Shown here: piece by piece, positions 7,753 to 38,570 of the stretch
Layout: every line of letters begins with the position of its first letter
How positions within the stretch are numbered: the stretch's first letter is position 1
Sequence record: PZ445443.1
Strand: one strand, 5' to 3'
Length of the DNA: 64,000 nt
DNA from: a phage
Translations under genes and position numbers: made by a program
The notes under the pieces: generated by a model
Told to the model about the DNA's origin: nothing
The model's input: only the letters and a program-made list of their open reading frames with translations
Databases searched by the model: none

Positions 7753-10700
7753 ATGCTTCCAATCCCTTTGCTAAAACTTGGTCGTCATTTCCTCGATAAG
7801 AGGGGTGGAATTAAGGAACTTGCTGTTCTGTCATACCCAATAGACAACAGTGATGGTACAAGCAACACAGTATCCTATGTAAATAGCTTAGCTATACTTT
7901 TTGATGATGGTCAGCTTAATATTACTGGCTATAATAGGTTCGGAGAGTGTCGGACTGGAGATCTTGATACAATAAACTATCCTAATGAGGCAGCTTGGAA
8001 CGTAGACCATGTTTGGAGAGCTGACCGTGCATTTGTAATCCGCACATTCGATAATAAATTTTTCTATATTGGTTGCACAGCTGGTCTTATCGGATCGGAG
8101 GCAGCAGGTGGAAACGATGTTTGTGTCAGAGAGTGGACACCTTTGCCGGAACAGATCGTAACAGGGTTGCATTTGGACACCCATCCTGAGAGACTTGTTG
8201 AAGTAATGGGTGGCGTAAACAATACCGTGTGGGTAATTGCTGCACCAGAGGCTGATGGTATGCTTCACCTGTACGGCTCTGGCAATAATACTTACGGCTC
8301 TCTTCATGTTGACAAAAGTCAACACGCTACTCCAGTTAAGATCGGTGAAACATCTGAAAGTCCAGAGACAGGTCCTTGGAAAAATCCAAGAATTAATTGT
8401 GAAGTTCATGACAACTCGGTTATTTTTGGTGGTCCTAACGGATTCTGGATTGCAGGTTACGACTTTCTGAGAAATAACAGTAGAAACGACCTTGTTTGGC
8501 CTCCTGTGCAGATTACTCGTAACGATTTGAGGGGCATTCCTGCAGATGAGGAGTGGAAAGGGTTTATGTGTGGTCCTAACGGGGCAGTAATTGCTACACA
8601 GAGGATGCATAGACCCGATGACCAGCAGCTTGTTAACGTATTTTATGGTCAAAACATTTGGGGAGATGATACATGGCGGGAACTGAATATCACCTACACC
8701 CATGAGGTAATGATGGCTCGTGGGTACGGCACAAGTGGCATTTTCTTCAATAATGGCACTAAGCAGTATCGTGGGTTCTCTCGCAACTTATGTAATGATA
8801 TTGGTGCACAATCTGCAAACAATAGTCCTAGGGCCGATTTTATCCACTATCAAGCTCTTGCTACAGCTAAATATGTTGAGCAACGCCTGCCAGTCAGCTG
8901 GACAGAGAGTGTTTATTTCCAAGGCATCCACAGAGAAGGTTTCTTAGGTACCTTTACTGTTGTTAATGGTAAACTTTGGTGGTCAGGTATCCCAAGGGGA
9001 AGTTTTACAGGATCTAATAACCTCTTTGGCGGCAGACTTAACAGCCAAGGGTTCACAGAGATTCCGGAGAATTGGTATAAAAATGTCCCGGTAGACAGTT
9101 GGGGTGTTGAGGATATTTTCGACGTTAACGGTGTTAGCAGCGTTAGCAATATTTACATTGGTGACACGGTCAAGATGAAATTGAAGCCTCAGCCAGAGGG
9201 GGCTACGTTCATTATTGACAAGATTGAACTGGTAAATGCTGCAGGCACGGTTGTTACAGATGCAAATTACCAATTCTCCACCAACTGGAACCACGGAGGG
9301 GCCAATGAAGTTGTTGTCACCCAGTATAACAGAAATGTTAACAGACGTGGCCTGTACTCTGTAAAAATAACCTATCATGACAAGCATGGCACAGGCAGAA
9401 CCCATACGACAAGGACTTTGAACTGGAACACCATAGTTCCTGCGTACCCGTCTGATGGTAAATGGCATACTGTCGGTAGAAACAAACAGTTCCATGTTAA
9501 TGATACTGTATACTTTGGGCTGAATGGGACCCAGCCTGCAGTAGAAGGGGATACATCGTATATGGTCAGACTCCACAGAATGGATGCTGGATCAGTCACT
9601 TATGATGTGACCCAAGAGATCTACGATCAAAGACGCGCCACGTATGACAATATTGTGAAAACACAAGCCTTGTGGGAGTTCAATCCTAATGGCAAGGGTG
9701 GTAAAATGTTGCAGGTTAATGAGCAGAACGGAACGTCGTTGACTGTTCACGAACACCCAGACCCTTGGCCTGATCCTGGAAAACCTCACCCAGGAGCTCG
9801 TACACTGAAAATTGTCAGCCATGATGCAGGGTATTTCGGAATACGCTGGGAAGCTACAGTAAGATATGTCGACGGGACAACAAACAACATAGGGATTACA
9901 CTTGGCGGCACTAGTGAAGATAACTCGCTGAAAATTGCCTACACGCCCAGAGGTATCTCTATTGATAATATGGATGTTGTTCGCAATGGTTACGGCGATG
10001 TGAATGTCAAAGTTACTCTTGGCGAACATCTTGGTGGGGAAAGGATCATCATGTATGCCTTTGATCATGATCCACGCACCAATGGAACTTATGCAAATCA
10101 GGCATGGAGTTACCTGATAAATGCACCTGAGCCGAATACTAAAGAGTTCTACTATGGTATGAAGCGAGATGTGTGCAAGAAAACAGGAACACATGACTGG
10201 ATTGCTATCTGCGTTAAAGATGAGCGCACAGCTTGGGATGAGCCTGTTAACAGATGGTTCATAGGTATTCCTACCAGAAGTGATAAGTATGTCGCAGAAT
10301 ATATTGTATGCATGGGCGGTACCAACCTAAACATGTGTTGGAACGAAGATGTAAACAAATACTCTGATTATGACTATATGAGGGATTACTCTTGTAATTT
10401 GTGGTTTAACCAAACTACAGGTTACCCTCCAAGACAGGCGAGAGTAAACCCTGCAATCTTCACAGACACGCAGGTTTTCTTGACAAAACAGGCCAACGAG
10501 GTCCAGACCTTCAAGAACAAATACGACCCTAATAAGTGGTTCTATAACTGCTATGGGGCATTTTTCTGGGGACCTGGAGAATTACCTGGTGGTGGCTCTT
10601 GTTTTGAGGCTGCAACTTACGCCAGTGACAGATTTATGGGCCAGGTCAAGAAATACAAGATAATTCCAGGGCCTGAAACTTTAGGCAACGCTGTCGACCC

Positions 10701-13209
10701 CTATATCATCATGAGTGATCTAAGATCGAACATGGATGGAACATCCATATCTATGCAAGTTCCGGTAACAAACGGATACAAGCGTGTTGTGATGATCATT
10801 AAGTGCGATCTGATAGGTAAGCAAGTTCTTGCAGAGAACGGAACTTCCACCCACCTATTTGAGACTGCTCTGCACTATCAGTTTGCTGATTCACCTTTTG
10901 CAGGGGATAAGAGAATATCTGACACAGACGCTGTGCGATGCAAGAAATTTATGCTAGGTGGTGGGTGGTGGTGGTATGAATTTGACTTAACAGACAAATT
11001 CACCGACACGTCTAAAGTAGTGACGGGGCTTCGTCTAGACCTTGGCGAAAACATGCACAAAAGTGTTTGTGATGGCACCTACGGTGACCCAACAATCTAC
11101 TTAAAGTATGTCTCTTTTGAGCACCCAGAGGATGTTGTTTATGGTCCAAAACTGAGACTGTTTGGCAATTGGATTGCTAAAGACAGGGTAGGTATGGGCA
11201 AGAAGGTAAGAGGCTTCTTAATGGATGCAGGTACAGAGGACATGCTAGTCAATGCAGTGTGGCCTGAATTACCTGGGACTCAGTGGAACAACTCAGCCAA
11301 ATCTATAAACTGGTTCAATATCCACAGGGCTATGTGGACAACCAACTGTTACCTGTGGAAAGAGCTGAATGACGGCGCTTTCGGGTTCACAGGCGGCAGA
11401 AGAATGGCAATCATTTGCTGGACAACGTTGCAAAGATGTTATGACCATGACTACGAGATTGGAGGTAGGGCATGGAAAAATATTAGGGATAGAATCATAA
11501 CCAACTTTGCAGATCCTAACGGTGGTGGAGCGTATGGCTTCGACTGCAGCAGGCTCATCCATTTGAACGGATCCTCTGCCTACAAGAAAGAAGGTTACTC
11601 TGGGTCTATGATAGAATGGGGCCTGGTGAAAGATGCTCGCGTGCTGATGGGTCAACAACTTGCTGCTGCAATAGGTCCTAATGCAGTGCAATCTGTTAAA
11701 CCTGCGTGGTTTGATATCCCATTGTGGTCATCCGGTACACCAGGAACTGCTGCAATCAACCCTACCACGGGGGATCTGGAAATCTCTTGGGAGGACTTGA
11801 AGCAGGTTGGAGGCTGGGATAAAACAGGGTATCAGGTCCAGTGGTGGAGGGCTGACGGATCTTTAGCCGCTGATGAGTTTGTTAAGGACAATTTCTACAC
11901 TATGTCCTCTGCAAAAGCACAGGAATTGTTCGGTCAGGCAACTCCGTCAACGATCACCATGTCTATGTGCTGTAAAGACAACAGGACTGGAGCTTTGGGG
12001 CCAAGGGTTGCTAAAGTTTTCTCAGGTATTAAATGGAATCTACCTGTCCAAAGTATTTCATGGAAGCAAATAGGTGATAACAAGCTGCTGGTTACCCCTG
12101 CCTGTCAGTTCAACGCAACTCTTAACGTTGATCCTGCTGTTGCGGCAAACTCAGCTAAAGCTTCTGACTTCTCTGTGTCTAACACTGCTATGGCAGATGT
12201 TAGGAAGATTGACACGCTGAACGCCAGAATTACCTGTAAAAACACTTATGGCACATTCCAAATCATCAACAACTTCACAGATGCTGATTCTAAGGTAGTG
12301 AGGACAGCAAGCCAGACTCTGAGTTTAGGAACTCTGGCCTATGCGGCCCTGATCACCGAGCAGTCGGCAACACTCCAAGGAGGTGGTGTAGGCAAGTCCA
12401 TTGCAACACCTGTGTGGAAGCCAAATGAGTGGGTTGTGTTTGATTTGACTGTGGACTTCTCCAGCGATAATAACTGGACATGGGTAAGGAATTGTTTGTC
12501 ACAATTGATGGGAGGTCCAAGCTCCGTTAGTGATAGTCACGACTCTACTGACCCGAGTGTGTTCCAGGTAGGTAAAACTCACCCAGAGACTGGAGAAACG
12601 TTGCCTGACAGGAAGTATGCGTTGGTTTGCATCTCTTACGGGAAGGCAGATGTCACCTTCTCAGGGACACACACTTATAACGGAACCTACAATTTCTCAA
12701 GGAAGTATAGTCTCAAAGCAGGGAACATTATAGACGAGGTTGGTGCACTGTATAATCCTGGCAACGGCATAGGGATTGTGGGTGGTCAACTGCAGATGCA
12801 GGAACCTTCTATTACCCCTTCCAACGTATCTGGGATTAGAAAGACTTGGGAAAGTAGCAATACCAACATTGCAACAGTGGATGCTACCACAGGACTGGTA
12901 ACATTTAAAGCTACTGGGAATGTCACCATAAAGTTTGTAGTTACAGATGATGCAGGCCGCAAAACGTCCTCAACATCATTCACTGTCAAACAGATGGCAC
13001 CTCAGTGGTTTATTTGGGAAGGAAATCCTCTTGACGGGGCCTACCCTAGACCTGCAGGAACGTCTAATATGAGGGTCTTTACCGGTCCGGTAATGAACAA
13101 TCCGACCACAACCACCAACCCTACATTTTTGGTGCTTACATACCTGAAATTATTGGCCTACCAAGGAACCAGATACAACTGCTTTTCGGAGCAGGTGTTG
13201 ATGGTCTAG
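7753..13209 (+). CDS. large tail fibre / host-specificity protein (1818 aa) with C-terminal Ig-like (Big_2-type) segment; 3' end probably frameshifted
   Basis: 1818-aa ORF; Big_2-like stretch TWESSNTNIATVDATTGLVTFKATGNVTIKFVVTDDAGRKTSS; a -1 frame continues to 13379. Confidence 0.65.
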   Translation: MLPIPLLKLGRHFLDKRGGIKELAVLSYPIDNSDGTSNTVSYVNSLAILFDDGQLNITGYNRFGECRTGDLDTINYPNEAAWNVDHVWRADRAFVIRTFDNKFFYIGCTAGLIGSEAAGGNDVCVREWTPLPEQIVTGLHLDTHPERLVEVMGGVNNTVWVIAAPEADGMLHLYGSGNNTYGSLHVDKSQHATPVKIGETSESPETGPWKNPRINCEVHDNSVIFGGPNGFWIAGYDFLRNNSRNDLVWPPVQITRNDLRGIPADEEWKGFMCGPNGAVIATQRMHRPDDQQLVNVFYGQNIWGDDTWRELNITYTHEVMMARGYGTSGIFFNNGTKQYRGFSRNLCNDIGAQSANNSPRADFIHYQALATAKYVEQRLPVSWTESVYFQGIHREGFLGTFTVVNGKLWWSGIPRGSFTGSNNLFGGRLNSQGFTEIPENWYKNVPVDSWGVEDIFDVNGVSSVSNIYIGDTVKMKLKPQPEGATFIIDKIELVNAAGTVVTDANYQFSTNWNHGGANEVVVTQYNRNVNRRGLYSVKITYHDKHGTGRTHTTRTLNWNTIVPAYPSDGKWHTVGRNKQFHVNDTVYFGLNGTQPAVEGDTSYMVRLHRMDAGSVTYDVTQEIYDQRRATYDNIVKTQALWEFNPNGKGGKMLQVNEQNGTSLTVHEHPDPWPDPGKPHPGARTLKIVSHDAGYFGIRWEATVRYVDGTTNNIGITLGGTSEDNSLKIAYTPRGISIDNMDVVRNGYGDVNVKVTLGEHLGGERIIMYAFDHDPRTNGTYANQAWSYLINAPEPNTKEFYYGMKRDVCKKTGTHDWIAICVKDERTAWDEPVNRWFIGIPTRSDKYVAEYIVCMGGTNLNMCWNEDVNKYSDYDYMRDYSCNLWFNQTTGYPPRQARVNPAIFTDTQVFLTKQANEVQTFKNKYDPNKWFYNCYGAFFWGPGELPGGGSCFEAATYASDRFMGQVKKYKIIPGPETLGNAVDPYIIMSDLRSNMDGTSISMQVPVTNGYKRVVMIIKCDLIGKQVLAENGTSTHLFETALHYQFADSPFAGDKRISDTDAVRCKKFMLGGGWWWYEFDLTDKFTDTSKVVTGLRLDLGENMHKSVCDGTYGDPTIYLKYVSFEHPEDVVYGPKLRLFGNWIAKDRVGMGKKVRGFLMDAGTEDMLVNAVWPELPGTQWNNSAKSINWFNIHRAMWTTNCYLWKELNDGAFGFTGGRRMAIICWTTLQRCYDHDYEIGGRAWKNIRDRIITNFADPNGGGAYGFDCSRLIHLNGSSAYKKEGYSGSMIEWGLVKDARVLMGQQLAAAIGPNAVQSVKPAWFDIPLWSSGTPGTAAINPTTGDLEISWEDLKQVGGWDKTGYQVQWWRADGSLAADEFVKDNFYTMSSAKAQELFGQATPSTITMSMCCKDNRTGALGPRVAKVFSGIKWNLPVQSISWKQIGDNKLLVTPACQFNATLNVDPAVAANSAKASDFSVSNTAMADVRKIDTLNARITCKNTYGTFQIINNFTDADSKVVRTASQTLSLGTLAYAALITEQSATLQGGGVGKSIATPVWKPNEWVVFDLTVDFSSDNNWTWVRNCLSQLMGGPSSVSDSHDSTDPSVFQVGKTHPETGETLPDRKYALVCISYGKADVTFSGTHTYNGTYNFSRKYSLKAGNIIDEVGALYNPGNGIGIVGGQLQMQEPSITPSNVSGIRKTWESSNTNIATVDATTGLVTFKATGNVTIKFVVTDDAGRKTSSTSFTVKQMAPQWFIWEGNPLDGAYPRPAGTSNMRVFTGPVMNNPTTTTNPTFLVLTYLKLLAYQGTRYNCFSEQVLMV

Positions 13210-13379
13210 CCACTTTTGGGTACAGTGACAACATTGATGCAGCCAGAAGCTCGGGTTGGATTGGATTTAAGTTTCAGTGGAACCCTGGTGGTAGAACATT
13301 AGGTCTTGCAAGCATAGGTGTTATGCTACCTGGTAACCAGCAATACCATCTCGAAGCTTATACAAACTTCCCTAGTTAA
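13068..13379 (+). other. start-less open frame (-1 relative to 7753..13209), likely the true C-terminus of the large fibre protein
   Basis: 103 sense codons with no ATG/GTG/TTG start; TAA at 13377-13379 lies just before terminator; joins the main frame with a one-base change in the T5 run 13126-13130. Confidence 0.4.
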
Positions 13380-13388
13380 CAGGAGGAA

Positions 13389-13425
13389 AATAAAAAGGGG
13401 CCAAACGGCCCCTTTCTTTTTATAA
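13389..13425. terminator. bidirectional rho-independent terminator between convergent transcription units
   Basis: AAAAAGGGGCCaaacGGCCCCTTTCTTTTT: GC stem flanked by A-tract and T-tract; separates + tail genes from - strand genes. Confidence 0.7.
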
Positions 13426-13626
13426 TTAGTAATATTCCCAACACGACCCATCTTCAGACGGCTGGACACGCTTACCTTCATGATCGACATAGGTGTAACC
13501 ACAGCCTTCACAGATAACAGGTGCCGCATAACCTTCCTTCCACTGCTTCTCCGTGATCAATCCTTTCAGATCTCCGCAGTCACGACCAAACAACTCTTCA
13601 GAACAGTCTTTACAAAAATCAGCCAT
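13426..13626 (-). CDS. small zinc-ribbon protein (CxxC...CxxC)
   Basis: 66 aa; CKDC and CEGC cysteine pairs. Confidence 0.5.
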   Translation of the reverse strand: MADFCKDCSEELFGRDCGDLKGLITEKQWKEGYAAPVICEGCGYTYVDHEGKRVQPSEDGSCWEYY

Positions 13627-35792: not shown

Positions 35793-38570
35793 ATGAGCAT
35801 GTGGTCTTTCGATTTTGAGTCATCCGGTTTGCTGGAAGACCCAGATCTTTATTATCACTGCGGCCTGTTTAAAGAGCTGAATAAGAACCGTTTTATGCTG
35901 TTCCTTCCTCTAAATGACCGCACACACTACTCCGAGGAGGATATAGAGAAGGCTAAGAACTTTATTCTGGCAAAGAAAACTCTTTATAAAGATTTTGAAG
36001 TTCGCATAGCAGATTTTTCGGAGTTAGAAGGTTGGCTTACAGGCAATTCCGACTGGTCACCAACAGCTTTGAACTGCCATAACTGCTACAGTTATGACTT
36101 TATGCTGATGGAAAGATTATCCGGTATTCATTTTGATATGTTCCGTGATCCTAAATGCATGGGGACTATCAACGACCACCAGGTCAACCTGTTTGATACG
36201 TTGGCGATGAGCCGAATCTTATGGCCTGATCGCCCTTTACCAAAAGGTTGTCCGGACTCTGTATTCAACCCGGTTACTAAGAAAATGCAGCCTGTCGGTC
36301 CTCACGGCCTTATGGCATGGGGCTACGCCCTTGGTAACCAGAAAGTTCAAATTGATGACTGGCGCGATCTTCCGTTGTGGAAGTATGTGGATCGTGTATT
36401 CGAGGACGTTATCATCCAGGAGCTGCTCTGGAAAGAGCTGGTAGCGGAATCAAAAGGTGTATTCTACGGCAAATCTGACATGCAGAACTTTATGTACGAT
36501 CCTGCCAAAGAGAAGCCGAAAGGGTTCAAGAAGATCACCTGGAAGAACGCATTACGCCGAGGCATGCTGCAGCACTTCCTGATGGAGCTGCAGGCCCGTC
36601 AGGGTGTGTATTTTGACATAGATGGGGCTATTGCTTTACGTGACCGTTGCGATGCGTGGATGAAAGAAATCGCTGATCGTGTTGAACCGCAACTACCTTT
36701 AAAAGAGCTGTCAATGTCTCAGCGGCCCAAGTTCCCTGAAAAGCCGTTTAACCAAGATGGGACAATCTCCAATAATGGTTGGAAATGGTTAAAAGATAAG
36801 CTTGGCTATCCTGTAGATATGAGCGCTTTAGAGTTCAAAGCCCCGCCTAAGCGAGCATTTACCTCTACAGGAGATGTCAGTAAGATGGGGATAAAATGGT
36901 GTGAAGAGATGGGCTGCAAAGACCCCGATAAGATGGCTGATTTCTTGAGAGGCTATATTAAGGGCACCTCCACACCACAACCTTTACCTAAAGAGCTAAT
37001 GGATCAGGCAATAAGTGATCTACAGCAGAAGCGAATGCCGGACTGCAAGATACCTATGAAAATCAGCAACCAGGACGACATTAAGCGATACCTGATCAGT
37101 GCTGGTTGGCTTCCGACAATGTGGAGAACTAAGGATGTAACTAAAGACAGCAAGAAGAAAGCTCTACCTGATGCAGATGTTGATGCACGAGTATATGCAT
37201 ATATGGACGAGCTTTTAGAGTCAGAGTATTGTGACCTGATTATCAACTTCTGGAACAAAACTGATGCTAAGTTCCAGACAACCGTGCACAAGTTCCGAAG
37301 CTTTCCTAACTCCGAAAGGATTAAAAAGGAAGTATTCGGGAAAATACGTAGAAAAGCTAGGGCACTTATTACTTCTCCGCAACTGAAAGATACGTTTGGA
37401 CACCTATGCCCTAATCTTGAAAAATTGAACGGAGAGATGGCTAAAGATATCGTCTTGTGGTTATCATTGCGAAACCGCAGATCGGTACTTGATCCAATCA
37501 AGGAGGATAAGGTTGATACTGGTCTTCTTAATCACCCACGTTTGAAGATTGACCATAAGCTTCCTGCTAAAAGTTCTGGGTTAACAAACACTTCCCGACA
37601 GAAACACAGTATTTGTGCAAACATGCCTAAACCATCTCCTAAAGTGGTTATGGGTAAAGAGATGCGTAGTCTGTGGGGTGTTCCTCCAGGATACTTTGAG
37701 ATCGGTATTGACGGGTCCAACTTAGAGCAGCTTATCGGGGCTTGGGGTGCCTTTGAGTTCGACAACGGCCTGTATTACGATGTTGTAAGTAACGGGGACG
37801 CACACCAAAACAATGCTGAGGCATATACAAAAGTAGCAGGTAGAGAGGTGTCTCGTAACGACGGTAAACCTATCACGTATGGGGTTATGTATGGGGCACA
37901 AAAAGATAAAGTTGCAGATATGCTGGACATCTCTCCAGAGTTGGGACAAAGGGTAATCGATGCACTCTGGGATGCCAACCCTGGTCTTAAGGGGCGTAAA
38001 GAAGATCTGGAGAAATTCTGGGAAGCAACGGGTAAGAAGTTTATCTACTCTTTTGATGGTCATGCTATCTGGACCCGATCTAAACACTCTTTACTTAATG
38101 CATACCAACAAAATGGCGGCGCATCGTTGTGTGACTTAGTTGGGATACTCATGCACCATCAAATGGTGAAGCGTGGGTGGTACGATGAAGGTGTTCGTCG
38201 TATTATCTATTACCATGACGAATATCAGCTTCAAGTCCCTGACACACCGAAGTATAAGACTGTGTACACCTTCGACACAATCGAAGAACTGGAAGCATTT
38301 AAGGCAGAGCAGGAGGCCAAACTTCATGTGTTCGACGGTCATAAGTACAAAAAGGCACGCAAGGATGAGGACGGAAACGAAGTGGTTGACAGAGACGGAA
38401 ACACGGTGTACGATCCTATCCTGAACGATGACGGAAAGCTTGAACTTATCTGGAGCCCTGTGGGTGAAATGGTGGTGCATTGCTTCTGGCAAGCTTCTAA
38501 AATGATGGGCGTCCCGTTCCAGATCACAGGTGAATACCTGTGTGGTCGTAATTGGGGTGATTGTCACTAA
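35793..38570 (+). CDS. DNA polymerase, family A, with 3'-5' exonuclease domain
   Basis: 925 aa; Exo I-like FDFES; motif B-like KPITYGVMYG; motif C-like YHDEYQ; RBS AAGGAGA. Confidence 0.85.
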   Translation: MSMWSFDFESSGLLEDPDLYYHCGLFKELNKNRFMLFLPLNDRTHYSEEDIEKAKNFILAKKTLYKDFEVRIADFSELEGWLTGNSDWSPTALNCHNCYSYDFMLMERLSGIHFDMFRDPKCMGTINDHQVNLFDTLAMSRILWPDRPLPKGCPDSVFNPVTKKMQPVGPHGLMAWGYALGNQKVQIDDWRDLPLWKYVDRVFEDVIIQELLWKELVAESKGVFYGKSDMQNFMYDPAKEKPKGFKKITWKNALRRGMLQHFLMELQARQGVYFDIDGAIALRDRCDAWMKEIADRVEPQLPLKELSMSQRPKFPEKPFNQDGTISNNGWKWLKDKLGYPVDMSALEFKAPPKRAFTSTGDVSKMGIKWCEEMGCKDPDKMADFLRGYIKGTSTPQPLPKELMDQAISDLQQKRMPDCKIPMKISNQDDIKRYLISAGWLPTMWRTKDVTKDSKKKALPDADVDARVYAYMDELLESEYCDLIINFWNKTDAKFQTTVHKFRSFPNSERIKKEVFGKIRRKARALITSPQLKDTFGHLCPNLEKLNGEMAKDIVLWLSLRNRRSVLDPIKEDKVDTGLLNHPRLKIDHKLPAKSSGLTNTSRQKHSICANMPKPSPKVVMGKEMRSLWGVPPGYFEIGIDGSNLEQLIGAWGAFEFDNGLYYDVVSNGDAHQNNAEAYTKVAGREVSRNDGKPITYGVMYGAQKDKVADMLDISPELGQRVIDALWDANPGLKGRKEDLEKFWEATGKKFIYSFDGHAIWTRSKHSLLNAYQQNGGASLCDLVGILMHHQMVKRGWYDEGVRRIIYYHDEYQLQVPDTPKYKTVYTFDTIEELEAFKAEQEAKLHVFDGHKYKKARKDEDGNEVVDRDGNTVYDPILNDDGKLELIWSPVGEMVVHCFWQASKMMGVPFQITGEYLCGRNWGDCH

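What the first reader, a model, noticed from the sequence alone, without database searches (positions are those of the whole stretch)
13068..13379. Apparent frameshift at the 3' end of the 1818-aa tail fibre gene
The main frame ends at 13209 with a hydrophobic, low-plausibility tail (...LVLTYLKLLAYQGTRYNCFSEQVLMV). A start-less -1 frame stays open from 13068 to TAA 13377-13379, reads like a structured C-terminal domain (...GWIGFKFQWNPGGRTLGLASIGVMLPGNQQYHLEAYTNFPS) and ends 10 nt before the bidirectional terminator. One extra T in the T5 run 13126-13130 would fuse the frames. This is a sequencing indel, a genuine truncating mutation, or slippage that modulates the fibre C-terminus and hence host range. 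No canonical X-XXY-YYZ slippery heptamer was seen.
Basis: seen in the sequence. Interest (0 to 1): 0.55.

Follow-up and report, generated by a model that had tools for sequence, protein, structure and literature searches.

The report
One-base deletion truncating phage fibre gene
A single missing T in a run of six Ts cuts the last 83 amino acids off a very large, dispensable tail-fibre-like gene of an rV5-like E. coli phage; it is an ordinary isolate-specific mutation or a base-calling error, not a programmed frameshift.

Summary
ORF 7753-13209 (1818 aa) ends in 26 out-of-frame codons. The -1 frame is open from 13068 to 13379. One extra T in the T5 run at 13126-13130 fuses the two frames.

The window is a Vequintavirus (rV5-like coliphage). 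The gene is the orthologue of rV5 gp27 and BASEL bas54_0041, "lateral tail fiber protein with intimin domain", 1875-1878 aa. All 37 phage records carrying this 3' allele have one more base at the site. Six were read directly and show T6. All 113 records encoding the C-terminal module read through in one frame. The rV5-type allele has TAC TTT GGT there, so it has no T run.

Substitutions downstream fall on third positions of the -1 frame (dN/dS 0-0.03), so that frame is the true coding frame. There is no slippery heptamer and no stimulatory RNA structure.

The nearest relative, Mangalyan, differs by 66 substitutions over 27.4 kb, and this is the only indel. The lost block resembles one SprB-type Ig-like repeat.

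The orthologue tolerates transposon insertions on E. coli K-12. It is independently broken in at least seven other deposited genomes.

Verdict: a non-programmed T6-to-T5 lesion. I put a genuine loss-of-function mutation at about 0.5 and a consensus error at about 0.43. Interest is low.

The parts
7753..13209 (+). The CDS as it stands: 1818 aa. It is a truncated orthologue of rV5 gp27, bas52_0040 and bas54_0041 ('lateral tail fiber protein with intimin domain' or 'Ig-like domain-containing protein'). Intact orthologues are 1875-1878 aa.
   Evidence: phrog_15684 (1878 positions) matches the intact relative end to end. The gene differs from Mangalyan's intact gene by 2 substitutions plus the T deletion.
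12781..12951 (+). The last Pfam-detectable Ig-like domain (Big_2, residues 1677-1733). It lies upstream of the lesion and is retained in the truncated product.
   Evidence: PF02368, E = 2.6e-08; weak intimin matches over the same residues.
13126..13130 (+). The lesion: a T5 run where relatives have T6 (codons TTT TTT = Phe1792-Phe1793).
   Evidence: this is the only difference from RudolfGeigy and APECc02 over 751 nt; it is the only indel against Mangalyan over 27,400 nt; all 37 matching records span one extra base. T6 was read directly in six relatives.
13131..13209 (+). Out-of-frame tail of the truncated product: 26 missense codons (LVLTYLKLLAYQGTRYNCFSEQVLMV; the Leu codon starts at 13129) followed by TAG.
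   Evidence: in this frame the substitutions against relatives fall on codon position 1, so it is not a selected reading frame.
13131..13379 (+). Ancestral C-terminus in the -1 frame: 82 codons plus TAA. It is one SprB-repeat-like Ig/PKD-type unit, the distal terminal domain that the truncated product lacks.
   Evidence: in frame in 113 of 113 records, with two alleles at 61-66% identity to each other; dN/dS 0-0.03; the block aligns to single units of SprB/PKD repeat proteins; there is no usable restart codon, only ATG 13323, which gives 18 aa.
13392..13417 (.). Bidirectional intrinsic terminator that closes the fibre operon and the convergent leftward genes.
   Evidence: The same element is annotated as Rho-independent terminators on both strands in rV5.

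Best explanation
The window carries a very recent, isolate-specific loss of one T from a T6 tract (TTT TTT, Phe-Phe) near the 3' end of the Vequintavirus gp27-type Ig-like fibre gene. Replication slippage on the short homopolymer is the likely cause (inferred). The ribosome then reads 26 missense codons and stops at 13207-13209. The product is 1818 aa instead of 1875 aa and lacks the entire terminal 82-83-aa Ig-like (SprB-repeat-like) domain.

By position at the free end of a string of Ig-like domains, that domain is probably the distal, ligand-contacting tip (inferred). The phage would survive because this fibre is dispensable on laboratory E. coli, which these phages infect through ECA and the LPS core using other fibres. 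The expected phenotype is loss or alteration of whatever host-specific adhesion this fibre provides, with no effect on plating on K-12. The gene is the last in its operon, so no polar effect is expected.

I am about 95% confident that the event is not programmed. I put the probability that it is a real mutation, rather than a consensus-calling error, at about 0.5.
For: - The lesion is derived and unique. It is T5 here and T6 in six relatives read directly. All 37 records matching the 80-nt query around the site span one extra base.
- All 113 records encoding the C-terminal module give a single in-frame tblastn piece.
- The -1 frame is the selected frame: third-position bias and dN/dS 0-0.03.
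- The event is very recent. The gene differs from Mangalyan's intact gene by only 2 substitutions, and the downstream 249 nt are identical to RudolfGeigy, APECc02 and Mangalyan.
- The assembly looks clean. Against Mangalyan there are 66 substitutions over 27,400 nt and this is the only indel, although that stretch holds 87 homopolymers of 5 nt or more and 13 of 6 nt or more. No other large gene is broken.
- The gene can be lost. bas54_0041 is the MaxBurger orthologue, and it tolerated disruptive transposon insertions on E. coli K-12 (bioRxiv 10.1101/2025.11.20.689424).
- The gene is lost repeatedly, by lesions that homopolymer miscalls cannot explain: TAT to TAG at codon 617 in both ECP26 and magaca, CAA to TAA at codon 1439 in phita32, a 2-bp deletion in ime, and a roughly 2.9-kb deletion in APECc02. 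YP-6 has a +1 T in a T run and V18 is split into four CDS.
Against: - No reads are available, and a one-base homopolymer indel is also the commonest consensus error of several sequencing platforms.
- The absence of any decay downstream fits an artefact as well as it fits a very recent mutation.
- The role of the terminal domain as a receptor-binding tip is inferred from position and weak repeat similarity only. Pfam finds nothing in the block, and the structure model was unusable (pLDDT 46).
- The assignment of the protein as a tail fibre rests on annotation, gene order and weak N-terminal similarity (PMC7229145). Cryo-EM of two BASEL Vequintavirinae resolved density for only three proximal fibres, although nine are annotated (PMC12143355).
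Confidence: 0.5

Rival explanations
1. Sequencing or assembly artefact. The phage really has T6 and an intact 1875-aa gene, and the consensus dropped one T in the homopolymer.
For: The lesion is a one-base length change in a homopolymer. It is the sole difference from RudolfGeigy and APECc02 over 751 nt. The region downstream of the T run is identical to those intact relatives and to Mangalyan, with no secondary decay. None of 37 relatives shares it. Other deposited genomes show homopolymer-type breaks in the same gene that may also be errors, such as YP-6.
Against: No other indel occurs across 27.4 kb that holds 87 homopolymers of 5 nt or more, measured against a relative 99.76% identical. 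No other large gene in the window is broken. An error-prone platform would normally leave several such errors, and Illumina consensus errors at T6 are rare (general knowledge). The single indel sits in a gene shown to be dispensable and found independently inactivated in several other isolates, which is where a real mutation would be tolerated.
Confidence: 0.43
2. Regulated recoding or a phase-variable switch. Ribosomal -1 slippage on A-UUU-UUG, transcriptional slippage, or reversible T5/T6 tract-length changes would produce a mixture of truncated and full-length fibre that modulates host range.
For: The site is U-rich. A tRNA-Leu slip from UUG to UUU would enter the correct frame and give a full-length protein with a single F1793L change (read from the sequence). 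Homopolymer tracts can expand and contract. Tail-fibre C-termini are known targets of diversification in other phages (general knowledge).
Against: The two-frame arrangement is not conserved: 113 of 113 relatives are in one frame. Tract length is invariant among the 37 records with this allele. The T run is absent from the rV5-type allele found in 76 records, sampled in rV5 and Pr121LW (TAC TTT GGT). There is no X-XXY-YYZ heptamer. There is no significant downstream structure (z = -0.56; 56 of 200 shuffles fold as well). There is no Shine-Dalgarno-like stimulator upstream. T5 is far shorter than the tracts of about 8-9 nt or more needed for efficient RNA-polymerase slippage or hypermutable phase variation (general knowledge).
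Confidence: 0.04

Closest known systems
Lambda PaPa stf frameshift (laboratory lambda lacks side tail fibres because of a one-base deletion relative to Ur-lambda; Hendrix & Duda 1992, cited from memory)
   Same: Both are a single-base deletion in a non-essential side or lateral fibre gene. Each splits or truncates the ORF while the downstream frame still encodes the intact ancestral C-terminus. Each phage remains viable on laboratory E. coli. Each lesion was found by comparison with wild relatives.
   Different: Here the lesion lies only 83 codons from the end, so most of the protein (1792 of 1875 residues) would still be made. The phenotype and read support are unknown. The phage is a large virulent myovirus with several alternative fibres.
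Other disrupted alleles of the same Vequintavirus gene (ECP26, magaca, phita32, ime, YP-6, APECc02, V18)
   Same: It is the same gene, independently inactivated in deposited genomes. YP-6 also has a one-base change in a T run.
   Different: Those lesions lie elsewhere in the gene (codons 405-1439, or a large deletion) and are mostly nonsense or multi-base changes. None affects the T6 tract at the terminal domain.
T7 gene 10A/10B and lambda G/GT programmed -1 frameshifts (cited from memory)
   Same: A -1 frame overlaps the 3' end of a structural gene, and a shift on a U-rich site would give a C-terminally extended product.
   Different: Those sites and the two-frame layout are conserved among relatives, and both products are made. 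Here the layout is unique to this sequence, relatives have a single ORF, and there is no canonical slippery site or stimulator.
Hypermutable poly-G tracts in Campylobacter phage (Fletchervirus) receptor-binding genes (Sorensen et al. 2021, cited from memory)
   Same: Homopolymer length change in a receptor-binding gene switches the reading frame.
   Different: Those tracts are long (about 9-13 G), vary within and between stocks, and are conserved as tracts. Here the T6 is short, invariant in 37 relatives, and absent from the other allele.

Membership tests
Vequintavirus gp27-type Ig-like lateral fibre protein (phrog_15684; rV5 gp27, bas54_0041) | Full-length sequence homology to the 1875-1878-aa family | tested here: met
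   Residues 1-1792 are collinear with intact orthologues. The gene is 99.96% identical in nucleotides to Mangalyan's. The family is 90-100% identical in amino acids across about 121 records. The phrog_15684 profile is covered end to end by the intact relative.
Vequintavirus gp27-type Ig-like lateral fibre protein (phrog_15684; rV5 gp27, bas54_0041) | Last gene of the tail-fibre locus, followed by a bidirectional terminator and convergent small genes | tested here: met
   The gene order is the same as in RudolfGeigy, Mangalyan and rV5. The terminator is at 13392-13417.
Vequintavirus gp27-type Ig-like lateral fibre protein (phrog_15684; rV5 gp27, bas54_0041) | Intact conserved C-terminal block (FGAYIPEIIGLPR...EAY..F) in frame | tested here: not met
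   In the window the block is displaced into the -1 frame by the T6-to-T5 change. The window therefore holds a truncated allele of the family.
Programmed -1 ribosomal frameshift | The two-frame overlap is conserved in homologues | tested here: not met
   113 of 113 records encode the C-terminus in a single frame. All 37 records with this allele carry the extra base.
Programmed -1 ribosomal frameshift | Slippery heptamer X-XXY-YYZ in the zero frame | tested here: not met
   The zero-frame reading is ACA TTT TTG GTG. A-TTT-TTG is not X-XXY-YYZ.
Programmed -1 ribosomal frameshift | A stimulatory downstream RNA structure or an upstream Shine-Dalgarno-like element | tested here: not met
   The fold of 13120-13220 has MFE -23.6 kcal/mol against a shuffle mean of -21.8, z = -0.56. 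The upstream sequence CCACCAACCCTACA has no Shine-Dalgarno-like motif.
Programmed -1 ribosomal frameshift | Both the short and the extended proteins are produced | not testable with these tools
   This needs virion proteomics or a western blot.
Hypermutable homopolymer contingency locus (phase-variable receptor-binding gene) | A long tract whose length varies among related isolates or within stocks | tested here: not met
   The tract is 6 nt. There is no length variation in 37 relatives. The tract is absent from the rV5-type allele. Variation within a stock is not testable here.
Loss-of-function frameshift in a dispensable fibre gene (lambda PaPa stf type) | A single-base indel relative to intact wild relatives, with the downstream frame still intact | tested here: met
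Loss-of-function frameshift in a dispensable fibre gene (lambda PaPa stf type) | The gene is dispensable on the propagation host | tested here: inconclusive
   This is shown for the orthologue bas54_0041 on E. coli K-12 in a preprint. It is also implied by at least seven other disrupted alleles. The isolate and its host are unknown here.
Loss-of-function frameshift in a dispensable fibre gene (lambda PaPa stf type) | The lesion is present in the phage DNA, that is, supported by reads | not testable with these tools
   No reads are available. The exact 1818-aa product is not on record in the gene-position index.
Homopolymer sequencing error | Further homopolymer indels scattered through the same assembly | tested here: not met
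   No other indel over 27,400 nt against Mangalyan. No split large genes elsewhere in the window. For 27.4-64 kb the relatives are too divergent (94-97%) to judge single-base indels in intergenic DNA.

The most novel reading that the evidence does not exclude
The T6 tract at the boundary of the terminal Ig-like domain acts as a low-frequency reversible switch, or a leaky -1 slip site on A-UUU-UUG. Phage stocks would then carry a mix of fibres with and without the distal domain, as a bet-hedging device for host range. The recurrent independent knock-outs of this gene, including the identical TAT-to-TAG change at codon 617 in two different backgrounds, would then reflect selection to shed this fibre on certain hosts rather than neutral decay.
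Probability: 0.04. Interest if true: 0.5.

Novelty: already known. Interest (0 to 1): 0.12.

Why it matters
This matters mainly for annotation and for use of the phage. The gene should be annotated as a frameshifted or truncated allele of the 1875-aa fibre, not as a normal 1818-aa protein plus 170 nt of apparent spacer. The site should be checked against reads.

If the lesion is real, this isolate lacks the distal domain of one of its several fibres. It may therefore have a narrower or altered host range than near-identical relatives such as Mangalyan. That is relevant if the phage is used in cocktails or in host-range studies.

The wider pattern is modestly useful. This largest fibre gene is broken in roughly one in eight of the genomes sampled here, and it is dispensable on K-12. 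Laboratory propagation may therefore commonly erode it, so published host ranges of rV5-like phages may depend on its status.

Tried and rejected
- **Programmed frameshift.** Rejected on comparative grounds, on motif grounds, and on structure grounds.
- **Independent expression of the C-terminal domain from an internal start.** Rejected. The only start codon in the -1 frame is ATG 13323, which gives 18 aa.
- **Identifying the source record.** The exact 1818-aa product is not on record. No phage record is 100% identical across the site.
- **Looking for T5 or T6 variants in large collections.** Pattern scans of viral, metagenome and genome contigs returned nothing, so they say nothing about natural T5 variants.
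- **Structure of the lost domain.** A model of the only database homologue (P0001, a 126-aa fragment, with window pieces as alignment rows) had pLDDT 46 and was not used. No fold search was run.
- **Domain assignment.** Pfam at E up to 10 found nothing in the terminal block. PDB sequence search found only weak intimin and S-layer Ig hits, in the upstream Big_2 domain.
- **Word-indexed protein search.** The search for homologous proteins returned only one fragment.
- **Assembly quality in 27.4-64 kb.** Comparison with Mangalyan there is only 89-99% identical, with many indels in short-ORF and intergenic DNA. It could not be used to judge assembly error rate. An ORF-level tblastn check found no split genes on the coding strand.
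Full report
**Observation.**
- ORF 7753-13209 on the + strand encodes 1818 aa and ends ...NPTFLVLTYLKLLAYQGTRYNCFSEQVLMV*.
- The frame one base behind it is open from 13068 (after TAA 13065-13067) to TAA 13377-13379.
- A T5 run lies at 13126-13130.
- Adding one T gives a continuous 1875-aa ORF.
- A bidirectional intrinsic terminator lies at 13392-13417, 12-14 nt after that TAA.

**What the locus is.**
The window is a Vequintavirus, an rV5-like E. coli myovirus. Megablast of 12700-13450 finds 113 phage records.
- In RudolfGeigy (Bas52) the orthologue is bas52_0040, "lateral tail fiber protein with intimin domain", 1875 aa.
- In Mangalyan it is an "Ig-like domain containing protein" of 1875 aa.
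- In rV5 it is gp27, 1878 aa, followed by annotated Rho-independent terminators on both strands.
- In MaxBurger (Bas54) it is bas54_0041.
- phrog_15684, a profile of 1878 positions, is matched end to end by the intact relative.
- Pfam sees only one Big_2 domain, at residues 1677-1733. PDB sequence search gives weak intimin hits at the same place.
- The protein is 90-100% identical across about 121 records.
- Maffei et al. 2021 (PMC8594841) describe rV5 gp27 as the last large lateral tail fibre gene. They name it one of three large fibre genes showing allelic variation.

**The lesion.**
- RudolfGeigy and APECc02 differ from window 12700-13450 by one base only: T6 in place of T5.
- Mangalyan is the nearest relative. 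It aligns to window 1-27400 at 99.76%, with 66 mismatches and exactly one gap, which is this T.
- Within the gene itself there are only two substitutions against Mangalyan.
- All 37 phage records that match an 80-nt query centred on the site span one extra base. T6 was read directly in RudolfGeigy, APECc02, Mangalyan, MaxBurger, EI-SP-GF and Aya.
- tblastn with the restored C-terminal 136 aa gives a single in-frame piece covering at least 99% of the query in 113 of 113 records. Of these, 37 carry this allele and 76 carry an rV5-type allele at 61-66% identity.
- The rV5-type allele reads GTG TAC TTT GGT at the site, so it has no T tract at all.

**Which frame is real.**
Downstream of the T run, substitutions against relatives fall overwhelmingly on the third position of the -1 frame.
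- EI-SP-GF: 8 of 10.
- Aya: 10 of 11.
- rV5: 51 of 78.
- Pr121LW: 52 of 81.

dN/dS is 0.03 against EI-SP-GF and 0 against Aya. In the frame of the 1818-aa ORF the same substitutions fall on codon position 1. The 26-residue tail is therefore out-of-frame missense, and the -1 frame is the ancestral C-terminus under purifying selection.

**Is it programmed?** No.
- The two-frame layout is unique to this sequence.
- The zero-frame reading ACA TTT TTG is not an X-XXY-YYZ heptamer.
- The 100 nt downstream fold no better than shuffles: z = -0.56, and 56 of 200 shuffles fold as well.
- There is no Shine-Dalgarno-like element upstream.
- T5 is too short for efficient transcriptional slippage (general knowledge).
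- The tract shows no length variation among 37 relatives and is absent from the other allele, so it is not a contingency tract.
- A trace of -1 slippage by tRNA-Leu from UUG to UUU would give a full-length F1793L protein. It cannot be excluded, but nothing supports it.
- The -1 frame has no restart codon except ATG 13323 (18 aa), so the domain cannot be made separately.

**What is lost.**
The shift falls at Phe1792/Phe1793, directly before the conserved terminal block FGAYIPEIIGLPRNQIQLLFGAGVDGLATFGYSDNIDAARSSGWIGFKFQWNPGGRTLGLASIGVMLPGNQQYHLEAYTNFPS.
- An exhaustive phmmer search of 1.84 billion representatives with this block found 15 proteins, best E = 2.5e-18. All matched in several stretches.
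- The five examined are repeat proteins built of Pfam SprB, PKD and Ig_7 units.
- The block aligns over about 50 residues with single repeat units at about 31% identity: FG-SD-I...SGG-G-Y-YQWSNG against FGYSDNI...SSGWIGFKFQWNPGG.
- Pfam itself gives no hit for the block, and the only structure model obtainable was unusable (pLDDT 46).

The assignment as one small SprB/PKD-like Ig-type beta-sandwich at the distal end is therefore a reasonable inference, not a demonstrated fold. By analogy with intimin and invasin, where a run of Big domains presents a terminal binding domain (general knowledge), the terminal domain is probably the ligand-contacting tip. This step is inferred.

**Mutation or artefact?** This cannot be settled without reads.

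For a real mutation:
- The assembly is otherwise clean. There is no other indel in 27.4 kb that holds 87 homopolymers of 5 nt or more and 13 of 6 nt or more.
- No other large gene is broken.
- The orthologue bas54_0041 tolerated disruptive transposon insertions. [quoted passage not shown]
- The same gene is independently disrupted in other deposited genomes, by lesions that homopolymer miscalls cannot explain:
  - TAT to TAG at codon 617 in ECP26, and the same change in magaca on a different flanking haplotype.
  - CAA to TAA at codon 1439 in phita32.
  - A 2-bp deletion in ime.
  - A roughly 2.9-kb internal deletion in APECc02.
  - A +1 T in YP-6, and a four-way split in V18.

For an artefact:
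- The lesion is exactly the type that base-callers produce.
- It is the sole difference from two relatives over 751 nt.
- There is no downstream decay.

A rough likelihood comparison gives near-even odds. It sets the empirical rate of disruption of this gene, about 7 of about 55 sampled genomes, against the chance that a lone residual homopolymer error lands in this gene. I put a genuine mutation at about 0.5, an artefact at about 0.43, and any regulated mechanism at about 0.04.

**Comparison with known cases.**
- The closest known case is the one-base deletion in stf that deprives laboratory lambda (PaPa) of side tail fibres (from memory). That is a non-essential fibre gene broken by a single-base deletion, with the ancestral C-terminus still readable in another frame.
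- The lesion does not meet the defining features of programmed -1 frameshifts such as lambda G/GT or T7 10A/10B.
- It does not meet those of hypermutable homopolymer switches such as the poly-G tracts of Campylobacter phages.

**Verdict.**
The finding is real in the sequence and correctly read, but ordinary. It is a non-programmed one-base loss in a T6 tract that truncates a dispensable fibre gene. Its value is for annotation and for interpreting this isolate's host range. Interest is low (0.12).

Noticed in passing
Orthologous gene in L013 (ECP26, MK883717) and L014 (magaca, MN850612), codon 617. The window equivalent is 9601-9603, which is TAT.: Two phages from different countries carry the same TAT-to-TAG nonsense change at codon 617 of this gene. 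They sit on different flanking haplotypes (CACC TAG GATGTT against CACT TAG GATGTG) and have different 3' alleles. This is either parallel mutation or a small recombined patch. It is unexplained.
   Followed up: partly
Orthologues in L011 (ime), L012 (YP-6), L015 (phita32), L002 (APECc02) and L016 (V18): The same large fibre gene is broken in at least seven of about 55 sampled complete Vequintavirus genomes. The lesions are nonsense codons, a 2-bp deletion, a T-run insertion, and a roughly 2.9-kb internal deletion. This suggests recurrent erosion of a dispensable gene during propagation.
   Followed up: partly
Phage collection records MG0656xx: Fifteen to seventeen records named 'Campylobacter phage' with host Campylobacter jejuni are Vequintavirus genomes 96-99% identical to E. 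coli phages. They are unannotated, and the host label looks doubtful.
   Followed up: no
Window 35793-38570 against L004 (Mangalyan DNA polymerase region): The window's DNA polymerase ORF is 925 aa. The corresponding stop-to-stop ORF in Mangalyan is 1136 aa and aligns as residues 1-675 plus 1000-1135. Mangalyan therefore carries an in-frame insertion of about 325 aa, plus a neighbouring HNH homing endonuclease, both absent from the window.
   Followed up: no
Window 1-27400 against 27401-64000: There is a sharp mosaic boundary. The first 27.4 kb is 99.76% identical to Mangalyan. The remainder is only 89-99% identical to it and is closest to other phages such as PMBT16 and slur16. This indicates recent recombination among Vequintaviruses.
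   Followed up: no
Window 58458 (C4 here, C5 in Mangalyan): A one-base homopolymer difference lies inside a small ORF that Mangalyan annotates as hypothetical (CPT_Mangalyan_174). The ORF matches the window in two frames. The region is only about 94% identical and the ORF is doubtful, so this says little about assembly errors.
   Followed up: partly
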